Shown: positions 5,916 through 11,801 of the stretch, in pieces | How the letters are laid out: each line of letters opens with the position of its first letter | Numbering within the stretch: position 1 is the stretch's first letter | Origin: a virus | Virus genome (UHGV): UHGV-0320335 | Strand: one strand, 5' to 3' | Length of the DNA: 11,959 nt | Notes under the pieces: model-generated | What the model was told of the DNA's origin: nothing | The model's input: only the letters and a program-made list of their open reading frames with translations | Database searches by the model: none | Made by a program: the position numbers and the translations under genes

Positions 5916-6256
5916 CAGTTCACCACCTGCTCAATCGTACAACTGAAATCACTGTACCTGGCGTTATCTGTGACGCTCCACTCCCGGCATACCACCCTCA
6001 CCGTCCGGTTATGTTTCGGCGGTCGCCACAAAAAGGCACGGTAACCACCATGCCACGATAAAAACTCTTCCAGCCATCGCCGGGTCGCCTCATCCGTCAC
6101 CCGGAACACCGCCTGAAACGTCTTCAGTCGGGCATTAAGTCCCGTCGGGCGGCGCTGTTCATAACCGTCACCAAACCGTACCCTCGCCACCGACGGTTTC
6201 TCACTCACCTGCATCCCTTCACGCGGGACCAGATGCAGCGTTTTTATCTCAGCCAC
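5915..6256 (-). CDS. M: Minor tail protein M, 113 aa
   Basis: Translation MAEIKTLHLVPREGMQVSEKPSVARVRFGDGYEQRRPTGLN..., lambda gpM-like; start overlaps the H stop by 8 nt; synteny H-M-L. Confidence 0.9.
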   Translation of the reverse strand: MAEIKTLHLVPREGMQVSEKPSVARVRFGDGYEQRRPTGLNARLKTFQAVFRVTDEATRRWLEEFLSWHGGYRAFLWRPPKHNRTVRVVCREWSVTDNARYSDFSCTIEQVVN

Positions 6257-9200
6257 TCAGCATTCCTCCGTCACGTCGCATGGACAGCATCACCGCCTGC
6301 ACCCGCTGGTCAATCAGTTGCACAAGGCTGCCCGCAGCTTCCGGCCCTATCTGGCCATTAGTCCCGTCATTCTGAATGGCGATATGGTAGACCGGGGAAT
6401 ACACCAGACCTGCACTGCCGTTCATACTGCCCACCGCTCGCACACCCAGCGAGCCATCCGCCGCCCGGGTCAGGGGCATAATGGCTTCAGGACCGGCCTC
6501 CCCCATCAGTCCCGCCCCTTTTGCAAAGGCAAAGTACGTGGGCGTATCCACAATACTGTTGCTGTACGCACTCAGGTTTGCCGAGGTATACACCCCGCCT
6601 TTTGCATTGGCCACCGCACCGCCCAGCCAGCTACCAATACTGCCGATAAATCCTCCCGCTCCGGACATACTGTTTGCCGCCGTCTTGATCCCGTTGACAA
6701 TCGCGGCATTCATAAGAACTTTTGATATTTCCTGCAGCACTGATGAGGCCCAGCTGCGCCATTCCACTTTATTTCCGTTCAGCATCTCCGTGATGTTATT
6801 CACCATCCCTGAGATACCCTCCGTCGCCAGCTGTGCTGCCTGTGAGGCGTAATCGGACGCATTATCCACCCAGTTACTGAATCCCTCCTGCAGCCCTTTC
6901 TGCCAGTCCGCACGCTGCACATCCGATTCGGCATAAAAGGCTTCCTGCTCTTTCAGACGTTCACTCAGATACTGCGCGTTCTGTGCCAGAGCCTGTCTGT
7001 AAAAATCCTCACTGATATCCCCGGTCTGATACTGAGACTGAAGGTCCGCATCCTTCTGGCGGAAACTGTCGCGGATCTGCTGCAACTCCCGCATGCGTTC
7101 ACGGAGCCGCTCTCCCTGCCCGTACCCCAGCAGTTCCGCTTCATTTGATGCACGCGCAGCCACATTATCATTCTTCAGGGTCTCTTCCCGGGACCGCAAC
7201 TGCTCCCGGATTTTTTGCTGGTCAATCAGGGCCGCATTGCGCAGCAGTTCCTGCTTCTGCATCTCCGTCAGGGTTTTCAGTTCGCCCTGCGCAGTCTGGT
7301 ATTTCAGCTTCGCCAGCTCTGTATTCTGCCCCGCAAGTGCCAATTGCTCTTTCTGCTGCTTCAGCAGCCGGGAAAAACTGTCTTCCGCTTTTTCCGTCTC
7401 TGATTTTCCACCCCGGGATTTGGGTTTATTCGCCTCGTTATTGCGCCAGGCTTCCAGGGCATTACTGATATAACGTTGTCTCGCCTCCTGATACGGTTCA
7501 CCCACAAAACCGAGGTCATCCGCCGCATACCCCAGTCGGACACGCTCTTTTTCTTCCCCTTTCAGTCTGGACAGGGCCAGCTCACGCTCTGTTTTTGTCA
7601 GGGCACTCTGCTGTTTATCATCCAGAGTGGCCTGTGGCAGCCGTAACGGCACATTCACCAGTCCCTGCCGCTGCTGAAGCAGTTCATTACCCAGCCCCAG
7701 CAGACGGTTGAATTCCGTATGCTGACCGTTCATAACCAGCATGGACTGGTACACCTTATTCTGCTCTGCCGCCTGCTGACGAATTAACGCCACACGACGG
7801 TCTTCCAGCCCGGCAAGCACATCCTGAATGGACTGCGCTTTTTCCTGCATCTGTGCCAGACGGGACTGCTCAACGGCAAGCTGCTCTGTTGCCTGAGAAA
7901 GCCCTTCCGTCACGGTCTTCACCGATGTCAGATGGTTTATCATGAATCCGTCACCGGTTGTCCAGCCAGGGTTAGCCAGAACATACTGATATCCAGCGAT
8001 TTTTTCCTGCAGGGATTTCACCCGGCTGGCCTGTTCATCAATCAGCCGGTTCTGCTCTGCCAGCGCCGCCCGTGTTCGTCCTTCATTATCTGAGGCTTCA
8101 GGCAAAGACATTGACAGCGTTTTATGCGCGATTTCATCTATCGTCAGTGCATACTGGCGCGCTGACTCCCTGGCCTGCTCCTGATTCTGGTACAGCGTAT
8201 ACCATGCTGCTGCCCCCAGCATCACCAGTCCGGGTACGCCACCAACCAGTCCCAACGCACCAGTCATCAGACGTGAGCCCACCGCCGTTGTACTGTTCAG
8301 CGCATTCTGGGCTGCGGTTCTGGCAGCAATATTTCTGTTCAGGCGTTCCTGTGTGGCCGCCAGACGGGCTTCTGCAGCAATCTGCATCTCCGTCCCGCGG
8401 GCTGCCGCCACAGCCTGCTGTGCACAGTACACGGCTGCCCTTGCCCGCGCCGTGGCAATCTGCGTCCCCCTGAGCTGTGCTTCCGCCAGTGCCACTTCAT
8501 TACGTGCTGCCGTCACAAGTCCTGCCGTGGCAGACACCGCTCCGGAGGCCATATTGCCAAAGTACCGGGCAACCCCGACGGCAACCAGCGCCCCAGCGGC
8601 TGTTGCCACATTATCAATATTACCGGCAACACCGTTCAGCACGCCGGAGAGCGTTTTCGTCGCTCCGCTGGCTTCATTCGCGCCACCCACCCAGGCCATA
8701 AAGGCGTTTTCCACCTTTGTGATCCCGTCAGAGACCGTTTCCGGCATGGCGGCATATTCATCACGCAATACCCCCAGCTGGCTGATTAACGCAGGAACGA
8801 CTTTATCCGCCGTCAGTTTGCCGTCGTCCGCCATCGCCTTAAGGTCTTTACGGGCCACGCCCATACCCGCAGCCAGTGCACGTACGATCCGGTCTCCGCT
8901 TTCATTGACCGAATTAAATTCCTCACCGCGTAACACACCCTGTGCCAGCGCCTGGCTGAACTGGGTGATCACCGAGCCCGCCTCTGCCGTACTGGCACCG
9001 GAGATTTTCAGCCCCGTGGAAATGGCCTCCGTCACCTTCAGCACATCATCAGCACTGTAACCATATTCACGCATTGAGGCTGCCGAGCGGGCAAACAGGG
9101 CCGCATTATCTGAAAATGCCGTGCCCGTCCGCTGGCTGATATCCATCAGCACTTTCTGTGATGACGAAAATTCATCGGATGACTGCGACGCCTGTTTCAG

Positions 9201-9491
9201 TCGGGCATTCACGGAACTCCATTCATCGGCCAGAGAAATCAGGTGTCCGGTGGCAAAGGCACCTGCAAATGCCCCCGCCGTTCCGGCAGCTGAAGCGCGG
9301 ATTTCCGTCAACTGGCTGTTCAGCTCAGCCAGGGCGCGTCGCTGCTCCCGGGCGACTGCGGCAGCCTGACGCCCGCCATTCTGCAGGGTCCGGTAATATT
9401 CACTGCCCATGCGGGAAGCCCGCTGGATCTCCGACTGGAATGACTGCGAATTTGCCGAAATTTTGATAATCAGTTCACGTAACGTCACCAT
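6249..9491 (-). CDS. H: Tail tape measure protein, 1080 aa
   Basis: Long Ala/Gln/Glu/Arg/Leu-rich, coiled-coil-like protein with an internal hydrophobic Gly-rich segment (TGALGLVGGVPGLVMLGAAAWY) and C-terminal ...IAIQNDGTNGQIGPEAAG...MRRDGGMLSG resembling the lambda gpH C-terminus; AAGGTG Shine-Dalgarno before the ATG at 9491; position between G-T and M. Confidence 0.9.
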   Translation of the reverse strand: MVTLRELIIKISANSQSFQSEIQRASRMGSEYYRTLQNGGRQAAAVAREQRRALAELNSQLTEIRASAAGTAGAFAGAFATGHLISLADEWSSVNARLKQASQSSDEFSSSQKVLMDISQRTGTAFSDNAALFARSAASMREYGYSADDVLKVTEAISTGLKISGASTAEAGSVITQFSQALAQGVLRGEEFNSVNESGDRIVRALAAGMGVARKDLKAMADDGKLTADKVVPALISQLGVLRDEYAAMPETVSDGITKVENAFMAWVGGANEASGATKTLSGVLNGVAGNIDNVATAAGALVAVGVARYFGNMASGAVSATAGLVTAARNEVALAEAQLRGTQIATARARAAVYCAQQAVAAARGTEMQIAAEARLAATQERLNRNIAARTAAQNALNSTTAVGSRLMTGALGLVGGVPGLVMLGAAAWYTLYQNQEQARESARQYALTIDEIAHKTLSMSLPEASDNEGRTRAALAEQNRLIDEQASRVKSLQEKIAGYQYVLANPGWTTGDGFMINHLTSVKTVTEGLSQATEQLAVEQSRLAQMQEKAQSIQDVLAGLEDRRVALIRQQAAEQNKVYQSMLVMNGQHTEFNRLLGLGNELLQQRQGLVNVPLRLPQATLDDKQQSALTKTERELALSRLKGEEKERVRLGYAADDLGFVGEPYQEARQRYISNALEAWRNNEANKPKSRGGKSETEKAEDSFSRLLKQQKEQLALAGQNTELAKLKYQTAQGELKTLTEMQKQELLRNAALIDQQKIREQLRSREETLKNDNVAARASNEAELLGYGQGERLRERMRELQQIRDSFRQKDADLQSQYQTGDISEDFYRQALAQNAQYLSERLKEQEAFYAESDVQRADWQKGLQEGFSNWVDNASDYASQAAQLATEGISGMVNNITEMLNGNKVEWRSWASSVLQEISKVLMNAAIVNGIKTAANSMSGAGGFIGSIGSWLGGAVANAKGGVYTSANLSAYSNSIVDTPTYFAFAKGAGLMGEAGPEAIMPLTRAADGSLGVRAVGSMNGSAGLVYSPVYHIAIQNDGTNGQIGPEAAGSLVQLIDQRVQAVMLSMRRDGGMLSG

Positions 9492-9509
9492 TCACCTTTC
9501 TCCGGGCGT

Positions 9510-9530
9510 AAAAAAACCGCCTCAGCGGTT
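9510..9530 (-). terminator. Weak terminator-like hairpin plus U-tract between T and H
   Basis: AACCGC (9515-9520) pairs with GCGGTT (9525-9530), 4-nt loop; on the minus strand followed by a run of 5 T (plus 9510-9514). Short stem, so low confidence. Confidence 0.3.
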
Positions 9531-9538
9531 CTCATCAT

Positions 9539-9853
9539 TCATGACTGTGCTGCAAAGCTCAGCGCGTCTTCCAGCGCCGCAAACGGATCCACCTCCGGCT
9601 TATCCTCATCCTCGCCCCAGCAGAGCATGGCGTCCTTCAGTGCAACATTCATCCCCTGTGCCCCAAAAACCGCTTTCACGATCTGTGCATTACGGATATC
9701 CCCGCGCTCATCACCCAGCGGGGATACCCTGTCGAACTCCATCCACATCATCGCCTCGCTCACACTCAGGCTGTGCCGCAGTTCGGATAAGGTGCGCCCC
9801 AGACGGAGCGCAAGTCGCATCAGAAAGCGAATTTCCGGGCGGGCTACTTTTTT
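9539..9853 (-). CDS. T: T segment of the G-T tail assembly chaperone fusion, expressed by -1 programmed ribosomal frameshift from G
   Basis: ORF in the -1 frame relative to G, open from the slippery site through stop at 9539; contains MRLALRLGRTLSELRHSLSVSEAMMWMEF...; frame relationship verified base by base (G codons top coordinate 0 mod 3, T codons 1 mod 3). Confidence 0.75.
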   Translation of the reverse strand, partial: KKVARPEIRFLMRLALRLGRTLSELRHSLSVSEAMMWMEFDRVSPLGDERGDIRNAQIVKAVFGAQGMNVALKDAMLCWGEDEDKPEVDPFAALEDALSFAAQS

Positions 9854-10218
9854 CTGGCCGACTCTGCATCAGCGATCAGTTCCAGTGCCTGACGCAGCAA
9901 CCGGGCATGTACCGGACCATAGACGGCCAGCACCTGCTCACGGTCGTCCGGAGCGAACACCCGCTGCAGATCCGTATCACACAGGACATCGCAGAACAGC
10001 GTCACATCCGCTTCCAGGTTACGGCGGGTTTTCGCCACCACCGACAGGGTATCGTCATCCTCTCCATCACCATTGAGCACTTCCTGCCACAGATACCAGG
10101 CCTCTGCCGAAGGCTCCCGCAGCACCACGCTGACATTACCCCATTCCGGCACCTTCACCGTTTTATGACGAAACCCTGACAGTCTGGCCAGCGCCAGCGT
10201 TTTCAGATCCTTTTTCAT
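9844..10218 (-). CDS. G: Tail assembly chaperone G, about 124 aa
   Basis: Translation MKKDLKTLALARLSGFRHKTVKVPEWGNVSVVLREPSAEAWYLWQEVL...ESARKK; acidic protein directly downstream of V and upstream of the tape measure, ending at the frameshift site. Start 10218 is preferred over the track's 10266 because it lies 14 nt after the V stop (TAA 10235-10233) rather than overlapping V. Confidence 0.8.
   Translation of the reverse strand: MKKDLKTLALARLSGFRHKTVKVPEWGNVSVVLREPSAEAWYLWQEVLNGDGEDDDTLSVVAKTRRNLEADVTLFCDVLCDTDLQRVFAPDDREQVLAVYGPVHARLLRQALELIADAESARKK
9847..9853 (-). promoter_or_regulatory. -1 programmed ribosomal frameshift slippery heptamer A AAA AAG
   Basis: Minus strand reads AGA AAA AAG TAG in the G frame; heptamer A_AAA_AAG (plus-strand CTTTTTT at 9847-9853) lies 1 codon before the G stop, and the -1 frame continues GTA GCC CGC CCG GAA ATT CGC TTT CTG ATG... 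into T. Confidence 0.7.
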
Positions 10219-10232
10219 GATGCCCCATCCCC

Positions 10233-10949
10233 TTATCCGGCGGCTGCGCTCACTGTCACGGTGCATTCAACAGACGTCACACTCTGTGCTTTCTCTGCCG
10301 AATCGGTCACCACGCAGGTATATTTCCCCGCATCAGCGGACTGCGCACCTGGCTTACTGAAGGTGTCTGTCGTCTGCCCGTCAACCGGCTGACCATCCTT
10401 CTTCCAAGCGTATTTATACGGCGGCGTTCCCCCGTTGGCACTGACTGACATTGTCAGCAGCGCACCTGTATTCACGGTAAGTGTTTTATCCAGATTTTTC
10501 ACAAACGCCAGCGGTACCACAAAGGACACCGGTTTGCCTTTCATACGCAGTGAAAACGTTGCTGCCACCACGCCGTTGGTACCGGATGACCAGGTGTGCT
10601 GACGCACTTCCGCCAGGAACTTAAAGCCCTTACCGGACGGAAACAGCACCTTAAACGCATACAACGCGTCATTGTCATAGGCATCACGCAGGGCGTTCTG
10701 GGCCTGATTCAGATAAAAATTACCCGACATGGAAATCTCAGACGACGCCCCCAGACCGTTGATGTTCTCCTGCTCGGTGGAGCAGAGCGTGGTCACATCA
10801 ATATCCTGTTTCTGACCGGCGGTGAACTGGACTTCCTTGATGGTGCAATCCAGGCGCAGATATTCCGCCTTATCCATAGTTTCAGCAGTCGCCGGGGCAG
10901 ATGAAATCATCACCTGCGTCAGCTGTGAGCGTTCATACAAAGCAGACAT
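10233..10949 (-). CDS. V: Major tail (tube) protein with a C-terminal Ig-like domain, about 238 aa
   Basis: Start chosen at the internal ATG (10949-10947) preceded by AGGAGG Shine-Dalgarno (plus 10955-10960), giving MSALYERSQLTQVMISSAPATAETMDKAEYLRLDCTIKEVQF...; C-terminal ...GGTPPYKYAWKKDGQPVDG...AGKYTCVVTD... is a typical Ig-like fold signature; position upstream of G as in lambda. Confidence 0.85.
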   Translation of the reverse strand: MSALYERSQLTQVMISSAPATAETMDKAEYLRLDCTIKEVQFTAGQKQDIDVTTLCSTEQENINGLGASSEISMSGNFYLNQAQNALRDAYDNDALYAFKVLFPSGKGFKFLAEVRQHTWSSGTNGVVAATFSLRMKGKPVSFVVPLAFVKNLDKTLTVNTGALLTMSVSANGGTPPYKYAWKKDGQPVDGQTTDTFSKPGAQSADAGKYTCVVTDSAEKAQSVTSVECTVTVSAAAG

Positions 10950-11013: not shown

Positions 11014-11358
11014 TCACACCGTGACCTGAAACTCCAGGGTTGCACGGTAACAGCGGTTTTCCGGAATATAGTCCTGCATTTCACTGACGGATCCCGGGGC
11101 CAGCAGCATTATGGCTTCACGGGCGTCCTGACGTATCTGACGCGCCTGCGTCACAGTCCCGGCATAAACGTCTATCTGCACCGACACTGAGGACTCCGCC
11201 TGCCCGCCCATCACGTCCGCTGACACCGATGAAATCAGGCTGAAAACCACCCACGGAAGCGCCACCGACGGCCTGCCATCCAGCAGGGGGACCACATACG
11301 GGTACACCTGCCCGCCGGCAAGATGCGCCAGATGAGGATACAAATCCGCCTCCGTCAT
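11014..11358 (-). CDS. Tail terminator / tail completion protein (U position), 114 aa; function assigned mainly by synteny
   Basis: ORF MTEADLYPHLAHLAGGQVYPYVVPLLDGRPSVALPWVVF... between the gp10-like gene and V; start ATG overlaps the upstream stop (ATGA), indicating translational coupling. Confidence 0.55.
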   Translation of the reverse strand: MTEADLYPHLAHLAGGQVYPYVVPLLDGRPSVALPWVVFSLISSVSADVMGGQAESSVSVQIDVYAGTVTQARQIRQDAREAIMLLAPGSVSEMQDYIPENRCYRATLEFQVTV

Positions 11359-11801
11359 CGTCTCAGTACCTCATCAATGGCCCGGTTCATCCGCGCAATC
11401 GCCACCTGAGCTGCCTGTTCACTGCGCACATCAAACGCCGGGCGCACAAACGGGTGCGGTGGCATATTCACAGTCCCCATTTCCACAAACCGCCAGTAGA
11501 AAGCATTGCGCGGGTTATCCGCCTTCATAGTGTTATCGCTGTTACCGGTGTCCGGATTAACACCACGGATATGGACACCGGATTCCATCCCGCCATCGCG
11601 GGAGCGCCGGGAAAGGATCACCACATTGCGGCGCAGTTTTCCCCTGCGTACCGGTGCCCGTGACACCACTTCTTCTTTCAGCACATTCGCACCCGCACGG
11701 GTTGCCTCACGCAGCACCCGGTTATTTTCCGCACCACTCAGAAGCTGCAAATCGCGGCTGATGTCCTCCAGCCCCGAAAAATCCAGCAGGGTTTCGATCA
11801 T
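11355..11801 (-). CDS. HK97 gp10-family head-tail joining / tail component protein (lambda Z position), 148 aa
   Basis: Translation MIETLLDFSGLEDISRDLQ...NAFYWRFVEMGTVNMPPHPFVRPAF... fits my recollection of the HK97 gp10 family; GGGAGGGG Shine-Dalgarno 4 nt upstream of the ATG at 11801. Confidence 0.7.
   Translation of the reverse strand: MIETLLDFSGLEDISRDLQLLSGAENNRVLREATRAGANVLKEEVVSRAPVRRGKLRRNVVILSRRSRDGGMESGVHIRGVNPDTGNSDNTMKADNPRNAFYWRFVEMGTVNMPPHPFVRPAFDVRSEQAAQVAIARMNRAIDEVLRR

What the first reader, a model, noticed from the sequence alone, without database searches (positions are those of the whole stretch)
9844..9853. Conserved G-T -1 programmed ribosomal frameshift at an A AAA AAG slippery heptamer
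The chaperone gene G ends ...AGA AAA AAG TAG and the T reading frame is open in the -1 frame from exactly this point, with no start codon needed. A_AAA_AAG is a well-characterised slippery heptamer, and the G / G-T arrangement is conserved among long-tailed phages. Although G here is not recognisably lambda G by sequence, the recoding architecture is intact, which supports a functional tail assembly pathway.
Basis: partly seen in the sequence, partly recalled or inferred. Interest (0 to 1): 0.4.

Follow-up and report, generated by a model that had tools for sequence, protein, structure and literature searches.

The report
Known phage tail-chaperone G-T ribosomal frameshift
This is the well-known "slip back one base" signal that lets a lambda-like E. 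coli prophage make a small amount of a longer tail-assembly chaperone (G-T) alongside the short one (G); a published reporter assay measured about 7% frameshifting on this exact sequence, so it is real but ordinary.

Summary
On the minus strand, gene G (10218..9844, 124 aa) ends AGA AAA AAG TAG. The heptamer A_AAA_AAG lies at 9853..9847 and the stop at 9846..9844. The -1 frame is open from 9868 to 9539 and encodes a lambda-T-type domain (PF06223). G is the HK97 gp13 type of tail assembly chaperone (PF06222), not the lambda G type. It sits between the major tail gene and the tape measure gene.

The interpretation, a programmed -1 ribosomal frameshift giving a 226-aa G-T fusion, is supported:
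- Relatives with 27-68% identical G all keep a shifty motif ending in AAA/AAG (A_AAA_AAG, G_GGA_AAG, G_GAA_AAG, G_GCA_AAG plus stop) or, in two Pseudomonas loci, AAC (G_GGA_AAC), usually 12 codons before the conserved LALR motif of T.
- The stretch between the G stop and the first ATG of T evolves like coding sequence.
- That ATG has no ribosome-binding site and is CTG in some relatives and in lambda.
- The identical 75 nt (9799-9873) gave 7% ± 0.79 frameshifting in an E. coli reporter (Antonov et al. 2013, Suppl. Table S2).

I found no conserved RNA structure or Shine-Dalgarno-like stimulator. The finding is already known. The one practical point is that public records annotate T as a separate 93-aa gene.

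The parts
9844..10218 (-). Gene G: tail assembly chaperone of the HK97 gp13 type, 124 aa plus TAG stop.
   Evidence: ORF and translation. Pfam PF06222 Phage_TAC_1 at E 1.7e-61 over residues 1-124. PDB 2OB9 'tail assembly chaperone' at E 4.4e-46. Its start has a good SD, -8.4 kcal/mol.
9847..9853 (-). Slippery heptamer A_AAA_AAG. The zero-frame codons AAA (9852-9850) and AAG (9849-9847) re-pair as AAA AAA after a -1 slip.
   Evidence: Sequence. It is the only in-frame X_XXA_AAG in ten tail genes. It is conserved in every locus of 88-100% G identity whose G end is on the contig, and equivalent shifty motifs sit at the same place in relatives of 27-68% identity. It lies inside the published reporter insert that gave 7% frameshifting.
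9844..9846 (-). Zero-frame stop codon TAG immediately 3' of the heptamer. It ends G and may act as a 'shifty stop' pause.
   Evidence: Sequence. Many relatives also have a stop adjacent to the motif, but not all. A stimulatory role is inferred, not tested.
9844..9868 (-). The 25-nt overlap in which both the G frame and the -1 (T) frame are open.
   Evidence: ovl_nt 25. In the clade with 68% identical G, the overlap shrinks to 10 nt, which is the heptamer plus the stop.
9539..9847 (-). T segment: -1 frame, 102 codons plus TGA stop. It is read only after the slip, giving G-T = join(10218..9847, 9847..9539), 226 aa.
   Evidence: Translation. Pfam PF06223 Phage_tail_T at E 1.5e-18. phrog_14766 (224 positions) matches G at profile positions 2-122 and T at 125-224, so it is a family of fused G-T proteins.
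9818..9820 (-). ATG that public records use as the start of a free-standing 93-aa 'tail assembly protein T'. It is most likely an internal Met of G-T.
   Evidence: Annotations. Anti-SD duplex of -3.5 kcal/mol against a background mean of -3.6 and -6.6 to -10.7 for most real starts. The column is CTG in Xenorhabdus L016 and L021 and CTG in lambda. Upstream codons evolve as coding sequence.
10233..10949 (-). Upstream neighbour: major tail protein (V equivalent) with a C-terminal Ig-like domain.
   Evidence: Pfam tail tube and Ig hits. Annotated as major tail subunit.
6249..9491 (-). Downstream neighbour: tail tape measure protein (H equivalent), 1080 aa.
   Evidence: Pfam PF06120 at 2.4e-90, PF20155 at 5.8e-58 and PF09718 at 5.5e-18.

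Best explanation
This is the programmed -1 ribosomal frameshift of a lambdoid (HK97-type) tail assembly chaperone gene pair in an E. coli prophage.

Most ribosomes translate G (124 aa) and terminate at TAG 9846-9844. A minority slip back one base on A_AAA_AAG, with the single E. coli tRNA-Lys re-pairing from AAG to the overlapping AAA. Those ribosomes then read GTA GCC CGC... in the -1 frame and produce a 226-aa G-T fusion (...ESARKK-VARPEIRFLMRLALRLGRT...). The published reporter measured about 7% slippage.

The role of the two products is inferred by analogy with phage lambda. G and the G part of G-T coat the tape measure protein. The T part recruits the major tail protein. The fixed low G-T:G ratio is needed to build a tail of the correct length, and neither protein ends up in the virion.

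Shown: the sequence architecture, the protein families, the conservation, and reporter-level frameshifting on this exact sequence (from the literature). Inferred: the role in tail assembly, and the exact tRNA choreography (tandem A/P-site slip versus a P-site slip with the stop codon in the A site).
For: 1. **Architecture.** G ends AGA AAA AAG TAG, and the -1 frame is open from 9868 to 9539.

2. **Protein families and gene order.** G is PF06222 and T is PF06223. They lie between the major tail gene and the tape measure gene. phrog_14766 is a fused G-T family that covers both parts.

3. **Direct experiment on the identical sequence.** The Antonov et al. 2013 insert fs-ID 15618692 matches window 9799-9873 exactly. 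It gave 7% +/- 0.79 frameshifting. A relative carrying G_GGA_AAG_CCG_TAA gave 6% +/- 0.61.

4. **Homologues already annotated as frameshifted.** These are HK97 gp13/gp14 and Bcep176 gp69/gp69', the latter with A_AAA_AAG in the same register.

5. **Comparative evidence from 120 loci and 54 distinct junctions.** A shifty motif is always present near the end of G. The -1 frame Lys codon usually lies 12 codons before the LALR motif of T, while the tail of G beyond the motif varies from 0 to about 12 codons. In the clade with 68% identical G, the -1 frame opens only within the heptamer.

6. **The stretch between the G stop and the first ATG of T is under protein-level selection in the T frame.** Entropy by codon position is 0.65/0.88/1.29, against 0.75/0.63/1.22 in the body of T. 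It contains an invariant Pro (CCT/CCC/CCG) and a Phe that is F in 19 of 20 distinct intervals (TTT/TTC). No canonical start codon lies upstream of it in that frame.

7. **ATG 9820 has no SD**. Its column is CTG in some relatives and in lambda, where the Lys-to-'LA(L)R' spacing is the same.

8. **Motifs with short A runs work equally well.** G_GGA_AAG gives 6% in the same reporter. This points to ribosomal rather than transcriptional slippage.
Against: - No evidence from an induced prophage or from virion assembly was found for this prophage. The 7% comes from a GST-MBP reporter that measures protein only, so on its own it cannot separate ribosomal from transcriptional slippage.
- No stimulatory element was found. 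The downstream fold has z = -0.03, alifold gives no consensus structure, and there is no consistent upstream SD-like sequence. Yet Sharma et al. 2014 report that heptamers without a stimulator reach at most about 10 times a roughly 0.05% background. What raises this site to 7% is therefore unexplained.
- Public records (RefSeq, GenBank) annotate T as an independent gene.
- I could not read the internal-initiation blot in Antonov et al. (Fig. S5).
Confidence: 0.93

Rival explanations
1. T is an independent 93-aa protein initiated at ATG 9820, as RefSeq and GenBank annotate it. On this view the heptamer at the end of G is incidental.
For: An in-frame ATG exists at 9820, and several annotation pipelines call it. 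Most relatives have Met at or next to this column.
Against: - The ATG has no SD: -3.5 kcal/mol against a background mean of -3.6, while most real starts in the window score -6.6 to -10.7.
- The column is CTG CTG in Xenorhabdus L016 and L021 and CTG in lambda.
- The 8 codons upstream of the ATG, which lie beyond the G stop, show third-position-biased variation with an invariant Pro and a Phe kept in 19 of 20 intervals.
- The reporter shows that a fusion is made.
- HK97 gp14 is annotated as a fusion.
Confidence: 0.04
2. The frame change is made by RNA polymerase. Transcriptional slippage on the A6 run would delete an A in a fraction of mRNAs, rather than the ribosome slipping.
For: The site is a homopolymeric A run, and the reporter assay measures protein only. 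The clade with 68% identical G has an A8 run.
Against: - The run here is only 6 A. The same paper states that transcriptional realignment typically needs homopolymers of 8 nt or more.
- Relatives use G_GGA_AAG (6% in the same reporter), G_GCA_AAG and G_GGA_AAC. These have runs of only 3 A, which cannot support polymerase slippage.
- A_AAA_AAG is an established ribosomal shift site in E. coli dnaX.
Confidence: 0.03
3. The product is the same, but the slip involves one tRNA rather than two. Peptidyl-tRNA-Lys in the P site slips from AAG to AAA while the slowly decoded UAG stop occupies the A site. On this view A_AAG plus the stop is the real signal, and the first three A of the heptamer matter less.
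For: - Pantoea and Erwinia relatives have G_GCA_AAG_TAA, and L009 has A_GAA_AAG_TAA. In these the upstream codon cannot re-pair well, so only A_AAG plus the stop is conserved.
- Many family members have a stop adjacent to the motif.
- Heptamers alone are weak in a neutral context, yet this cassette gives 7%.
Against: - G_GGA_AAG_CCG_TAA, where the stop is one codon away, gives a similar 6%.
- HK97, Xenorhabdus and Burkholderia members have the stop 5-12 codons downstream.
- Lambda's site has no adjacent stop.
- The two routes give the same amino-acid sequence, so nothing examined here distinguishes them.
Confidence: 0.3

Closest known systems
HK97 gp13 / gp14 (tail assembly chaperone and its -1 frameshift extension); Pfam PF06222 + PF06223; PDB 2OB9
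   Same: G is 63% identical to gp13 and falls in the same Pfam family. The gene order is the same: major tail gene, G, G-T, tape measure gene. The T segment shares the motif FLMxLALRxGRTLSEL, and the slip-Lys lies the same 12 codons before LALR.
   Different: HK97 uses the imperfect motif G_GAA_AAG followed by 5 more G codons before its stop. This window uses the canonical A_AAA_AAG followed directly by TAG. HK97 also has a moron gene (gp15) between T and the tape measure gene, which is absent here.
Phage lambda G / G-T frameshift (Levin, Hendrix & Casjens 1993; Xu, Hendrix & Duda 2004, 2013, 2014, as cited in PMC5009743)
   Same: The genomic position is the same, the shift is -1 near the end of G, and the efficiency is low. 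The T domain is the same Pfam family, PF06223. The spacing from the slip-Lys to the 'LA(L)R' motif is the same. Function is presumed to be the same.
   Different: G is not detectably similar to lambda G (BLASTP E 6.5; PF06894 versus PF06222). The heptamer is G_GGA_AAG in lambda and A_AAA_AAG here. Lambda has no stop next to the heptamer.
GeneTack cluster 'Phage_TAC [862991913]' (Antonov et al. 2013, PMC3711429)
   Same: The tested insert fs-ID 15618692 is identical to window 9799-9873. This window is a member of that published cluster, which gave 7% frameshifting.
   Different: Nothing at the sequence level. The published test is a reporter assay, not a phage assembly assay.
E. coli dnaX frameshift cassette
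   Same: The heptamer A_AAA_AAG is the same, and so is the tRNA-Lys-based slip.
   Different: dnaX has an upstream SD-like stimulator and a downstream hairpin and reaches about 50%. Here neither element was found and the efficiency is 7%. The dnaX shift shortens the protein, whereas this one lengthens it.

Membership tests
Tail assembly chaperone G/G-T programmed -1 frameshift of long-tailed phages (Xu et al. 2004 class) | Two overlapping ORFs lying between the major tail protein gene and the tape measure gene. | tested here: met
   V equivalent at 10949..10233, G at 10218..9844, T frame at 9868..9539, H at 9491..6249.
Tail assembly chaperone G/G-T programmed -1 frameshift of long-tailed phages (Xu et al. 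2004 class) | The downstream ORF is in the -1 frame relative to the upstream ORF and has no initiation signal of its own. | tested here: met
   The frame relation is shown. The first canonical start in the T frame is ATG 9820, with an SD duplex of -3.5 kcal/mol, equal to background. That column is not a start codon in L016, L021 or lambda.
Tail assembly chaperone G/G-T programmed -1 frameshift of long-tailed phages (Xu et al. 2004 class) | An in-frame slippery sequence within the overlap. | tested here: met
   A_AAA_AAG at 9853..9847 lies inside the 25-nt overlap. It is the only X_XXA_AAG in 3,689 codons.
Tail assembly chaperone G/G-T programmed -1 frameshift of long-tailed phages (Xu et al. 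2004 class) | The shift site and the two-frame arrangement are conserved among divergent homologues. | tested here: met
   54 distinct junctions from 120 loci, with G identity down to 27%, all keep a shifty motif. The spacing to T is nearly constant.
Tail assembly chaperone G/G-T programmed -1 frameshift of long-tailed phages (Xu et al. 2004 class) | The fusion protein is actually produced at a low, fixed frequency. | tested here: met
   This rests on the literature, not on my own experiment. The identical 75 nt gave 7% +/- 0.79 in an E. coli GST-MBP reporter. Production in an induced prophage has not been shown.
Tail assembly chaperone G/G-T programmed -1 frameshift of long-tailed phages (Xu et al. 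2004 class) | G and G-T are both required, at a balanced ratio, for tail assembly and are absent from virions. | not testable with these tools
   This is known for lambda (review PMC5009743). For this prophage it is inferred from homology only.
Pfam PF06222 Phage_TAC_1 (HK97 gp13 type) + PF06223 Phage_tail_T | The score exceeds the Pfam gathering threshold. | tested here: met
   206 bits against a cut-off of 25, and 67.4 bits against a cut-off of 25.9.
Lambda gpG family (Pfam PF06894 Phage_TAC_2) | Sequence similarity to lambda G. | tested here: not met
   BLASTP gives E 6.5. G has no PF06894 hit, while lambda G hits PF06894 at 9.2e-62.
dnaX-type stimulated A_AAA_AAG cassette | An upstream SD-like element about 10 nt 5' of the heptamer and a stable hairpin 5-9 nt 3' of it. 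| tested here: not met
   The upstream anti-SD duplex is -3.0 kcal/mol, which is background. The downstream fold has z = -0.03. alifold finds no consensus structure across 26 diverse junctions. The only local hairpin starts 34 nt 3' of the heptamer.

The most novel reading that the evidence does not exclude
The zero-frame UAG directly after the heptamer may be a functional 'shifty stop'. Slow termination would pause the ribosome with tRNA-Lys on A_AAG in the P site, and this pause would be what lifts an otherwise weak, unstimulated heptamer to about 7%. On this reading, release factor 1 activity sets the G:G-T ratio and so ties tail assembly to host physiology. It would also explain the relatives that keep only A_AAG plus a stop (G_GCA_AAG_TAA).
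Probability: 0.25. Interest if true: 0.3.

Novelty: already known. Interest (0 to 1): 0.1.

Why it matters
The mechanism is a textbook case, so the scientific yield is low.

Two practical points remain:

- **Annotation.** This module occurs in 1,246 of 5,426 complete E. coli genomes, including Stx-converting phages. In all five of the records I opened, RefSeq and GenBank list T as a free-standing 93-aa protein instead of a 226-aa frameshift product. Proteomics databases and pangenome gene counts built on such records would therefore miss the real protein.
- **A natural series of shift sites.** The PF06222 family carries A_AAA_AAG, G_GGA_AAG, G_GAA_AAG, G_GCA_AAG plus stop, and G_GGA_AAC at one homologous position. 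This could be used to study how much context a bacterial -1 site needs.

Tried and rejected
- **NCBIfam scan of G and T:** no family was hit.
- **Downstream stimulatory RNA structure:** a fold of 121 nt gave z = -0.03. RNAalifold on 26 diverse junctions gave no consensus structure. A local hairpin at 9793-9812 is 34 nt from the heptamer and lies in the codons for the conserved LALRLGR motif, so I rejected it as a stimulator.
- **Upstream SD-like stimulator:** the anti-SD duplex is -3.0 kcal/mol here and is inconsistent across the family. Rejected.
- **Independent start for T:** rejected on SD strength, on relatives that lack a start codon at that column, and on coding-type conservation upstream.
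- **Transcriptional slippage:** considered unlikely, because the run is only 6 A and relatives with 3 A shift equally well.
- **Promoter and terminator scan of 9400-10300:** nothing was called.
- **Literature access:** the full text of Xu et al. 2004 is not in the library, so I used it only through papers that cite it. Two paper searches failed on term syntax and one returned nothing.
- **Not run:** structure prediction and fold search, which were not needed for the verdict.

Full report
**What is in the sequence.** The genes of this window run on the minus strand and form a lambdoid tail module. In order they are:
- an HK97 gp10-like gene (11801..11355);
- a tail terminator gene (11358..11014);
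- the major tail protein gene, whose product has an Ig-like C-terminus (10949..10233);
- G (10218..9844);
- the T frame (to 9539);
- the tape measure gene (9491..6249);
- the M/L/K/I/J equivalents.

On the minus strand G ends ...GCC AGA AAA AAG TAG. The heptamer A_AAA_AAG occupies 9853..9847 and the stop occupies 9846..9844. G translates to ...ADAESARKK*. The -1 frame reads *CRVGQKKVARPEIRFLMRLALRLGRT... through to a stop at 9541..9539. The only inaccuracy is that the -1 frame opens at 9868, which is 15 nt before the heptamer, rather than exactly at it. The overlap is 25 nt.

**Is it more than chance?** The bare motif is not rare enough to be significant on its own: 3 copies on both strands against 1.07 expected, with 18 of 200 shuffles reaching 3. 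Its placement is what counts. The ten tail genes contain 3,689 codons and only 10 in-frame X_XXY_YYZ heptamers of any kind. Just one of them is of the highly shifty X_XXA_AAG class, and it sits two codons before the G stop, inside a roughly 7-codon overlap.

**What the proteins are.**
- G matches Pfam PF06222 (Phage_TAC_1) end to end (E 1.7e-61) and the solved structure 2OB9, 'tail assembly chaperone' (E 4.4e-46). It is 63% identical to HK97 gp13.
- G is not detectably related to lambda G by BLASTP (E 6.5). Lambda G belongs to PF06894.
- The -1 extension carries PF06223 (Phage_tail_T, E 1.5e-18), the same family as lambda T (2.1e-14).
- PHROG 14766, a profile of 224 positions, matches G over positions 2-122 and T over positions 125-224. 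Fused G-T proteins of this type are therefore already a recognised family.

**Where the window comes from.** The region is 95-99.8% identical to Stx1a-, Stx2a- and Stx2c-converting phages, to other lambdoid E. coli phages (92 phage records), and to prophages in 1,246 of 5,426 complete E. coli genomes.

**Comparative evidence.** I collected 120 loci encoding relatives of G, from phage records, IMG/VR and one genome per GTDB species. I analysed their G/T junctions with a script.
- **A shifty motif is always present.** Every locus with an intact G and T has a shifty motif near the end of G:
  - A_AAA_AAG (this clade, the clade with 68% identical G, Xenorhabdus, Yersinia, Burkholderia Bcep176);
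  - G_GGA_AAG (the mEp390 group);
  - G_GAA_AAG (HK97, Leclercia);
  - G_GCA_AAG_TAA (Pantoea, Erwinia);
  - G_GGA_AAC (Pseudomonas).
- **The spacing to T is fixed.** In the T frame the slip-site Lys codon usually lies 12 codons before the conserved LALR motif. The tail of G beyond the motif varies from 0 to about 12 codons.
- **The overlap can be minimal.** In the E. coli clade with 68% identical G (GTT_AAA_AAA_AAG_TAG), a TAA in the -1 frame leaves only 10 nt of overlap. The frame change there can only occur within the heptamer.
- **The linker evolves as coding sequence.** In members whose G stop follows the motif directly or one codon later, the 8 codons between that stop and the first ATG of T show third-position-biased variation: entropy 0.65/0.88/1.29 by codon position, against 0.75/0.63/1.22 in the body of T. 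They include an invariant Pro encoded by CCT, CCC and CCG, and a Phe kept in 19 of 20 distinct intervals and encoded by TTT and TTC. This stretch is therefore translated in the T frame. In this window no canonical start codon precedes it in that frame.

**The independent-start rival.** RefSeq and GenBank annotate T as a separate 93-aa ORF starting at ATG 9820.
- That ATG pairs with the anti-SD sequence at -3.5 kcal/mol. The window-wide background mean is -3.6, and most genuine starts here score -6.6 to -10.7.
- The same column is CTG CTG in Xenorhabdus L016 and L021.
- It is CTG in lambda, whose T segment (GKVFDGELSFALKLAREMGR) has the same Lys-to-'LA(L)R' spacing.

The Met is best read as a hydrophobic residue inside G-T.

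**Published experiment on this very sequence.** Antonov et al. 2013 (NAR 41:6514, PMC3711429) describe a GeneTack cluster named 'phage tail assembly chaperone'. It holds 41 genes similar to an HK97 protein, and the authors report 6% and 7% frameshifting for two members. [quoted passage not shown] This 75-mer matches window 9799-9873 on the minus strand without a mismatch. The second insert (G_GGA_AAG_CCG_TAA) gave 6% +/- 0.61. HK97 gp14 and Bcep176 gp69' are also annotated as -1 frameshift products, and Bcep176 has A_AAA_AAG in the same register.

**Mechanism.** E. coli has a single tRNA-Lys that reads both AAA and AAG and pairs less well with AAG. This is why A_AAA_AAG is among the shiftiest bacterial heptamers and is the dnaX shift site (review PMC5009743). 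Unlike dnaX, this site has no detectable stimulators:
- The 121-nt fold is no more stable than shuffled sequence (z = -0.03).
- RNAalifold finds no consensus structure in 26 diverse junctions.
- The upstream anti-SD pairing is at background.

Sharma et al. 2014 report that heptamers without stimulators reach at most about ten times a roughly 0.05% background in a neutral context. The 7% measured for the native cassette therefore suggests some contribution from local context. The obvious candidate is the UAG directly after the heptamer. Supporting this, some relatives keep only A_AAG plus a stop (G_GCA_AAG_TAA). Against it, G_GGA_AAG_CCG_TAA performs similarly, and HK97 and lambda have no adjacent stop. 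I keep this as a mechanistic variant with about 0.25-0.3 probability. It yields the same protein.

Transcriptional slippage is unlikely. The run is only 6 A, the GeneTack paper puts the usual requirement at 8 or more, and relatives with 3 A shift equally well.

**Function.** The function is inferred by homology with lambda. G and the G part of G-T bind the tape measure protein. T binds the major tail protein and starts its polymerisation. The ratio matters, and neither protein is in the virion. None of this has been tested for this prophage.

**Verdict.** The feature is a member of a known, published and experimentally tested class, down to the identical nucleotide sequence. Novelty: already known. 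Interest is low (0.1). The one useful by-product is that public annotation of T as a stand-alone gene is probably wrong. In the records I inspected, T is listed this way, and the module is present in more than 1,200 complete E. coli genomes.

Noticed in passing
window 9539-9820 (minus strand); L001 3471-3752; L120 1071-1352: GenBank and RefSeq records annotate T as an independent 93-aa protein ('tail protein', 'tail assembly protein' or 'phage tail assembly protein T') starting at ATG 9820. They do not annotate the 226-aa G-T frameshift product. The module occurs in 1,246 of 5,426 complete E. coli genomes, so this looks like a widespread annotation error.
   Followed up: yes
L003 1263-1269 (HK97); L022, L023, L025, L026 (Erwinia, Kalamiella, Pantoea); L038, L039 (Pseudomonas): Within one protein family the shift motif varies at the homologous position. 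HK97 has the imperfect G_GAA_AAG. Pantoea and Erwinia have G_GCA_AAG_TAA, in which only A_AAG plus a stop is shifty. Pseudomonas has G_GGA_AAC. In the 26 diverse junctions with the common spacing, the shared core is A_AAG followed by U in all but one (C in L024).
   Followed up: partly
L094-L119 (IMG/VR E. coli prophages with 68% identical G), junction GTT_AAA_AAA_AAG_TAG: A TAA in the -1 frame lies immediately 5' of the heptamer, so the two frames overlap by only 10 nt. The A run here is 8 long, so transcriptional slippage could contribute in this clade.
   Followed up: partly
window 9510-9533, minus strand (between the T stop at 9539 and the H start at 9491): A hairpin (AACCGC-UGAG-GCGGUU) followed by a U run looks like an intrinsic terminator inside the late tail operon. 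The centroid fold shows it, but the consensus scan did not call it. HK97 and mEp390 have terminator-like hairpins at similar places.
   Followed up: partly
window 9793-9812, minus strand: An 8-bp hairpin (UGCGCUCC-GUCU-GGGGCGCA) lies 34 nt 3' of the heptamer, within the codons for the conserved LALRLGR motif. It recurs in HK97 and mEp390, but RNAalifold finds no consensus structure. It is probably a by-product of the coding sequence and is too far away to be a classical stimulator.
   Followed up: partly
proteins P0001, P0002, P0004: Rare in-frame G-T fusion ORFs appear in metagenome assemblies. The junction in P0004 (KKVALPG) equals the predicted slip product of the clade with 68% identical G. 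P0001 lacks the four residues VARP. These are probably homopolymer or assembly errors, or small deletions.
   Followed up: partly
L043 (IMG/VR 3300029191_000019); L013 (Leclercia adecarboxylata NCTC13032): In L043 the T frame diverges after LALRLGRTL and runs on for 326 aa, which suggests a deletion variant. In L013 the G gene is truncated and T is lost, which suggests a decayed prophage.
   Followed up: no
window 10233-10949, minus strand: The major tail protein carries a C-terminal immunoglobulin-like domain (Pfam Ig_3, Ig_2, I-set; residues about 194-272 of the longer ORF translation).
   Followed up: no
literature: PMC4066793 versus PMC3711429: Heptamers without stimulators give at most about 10 times a 0.05% background in the Sharma et al. 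2014 lacZ system. The native cassette here gave 7% in the Antonov et al. 2013 GST-MBP system. Whether the gap reflects context, the adjacent stop or the assay is unexplained.
   Followed up: partly
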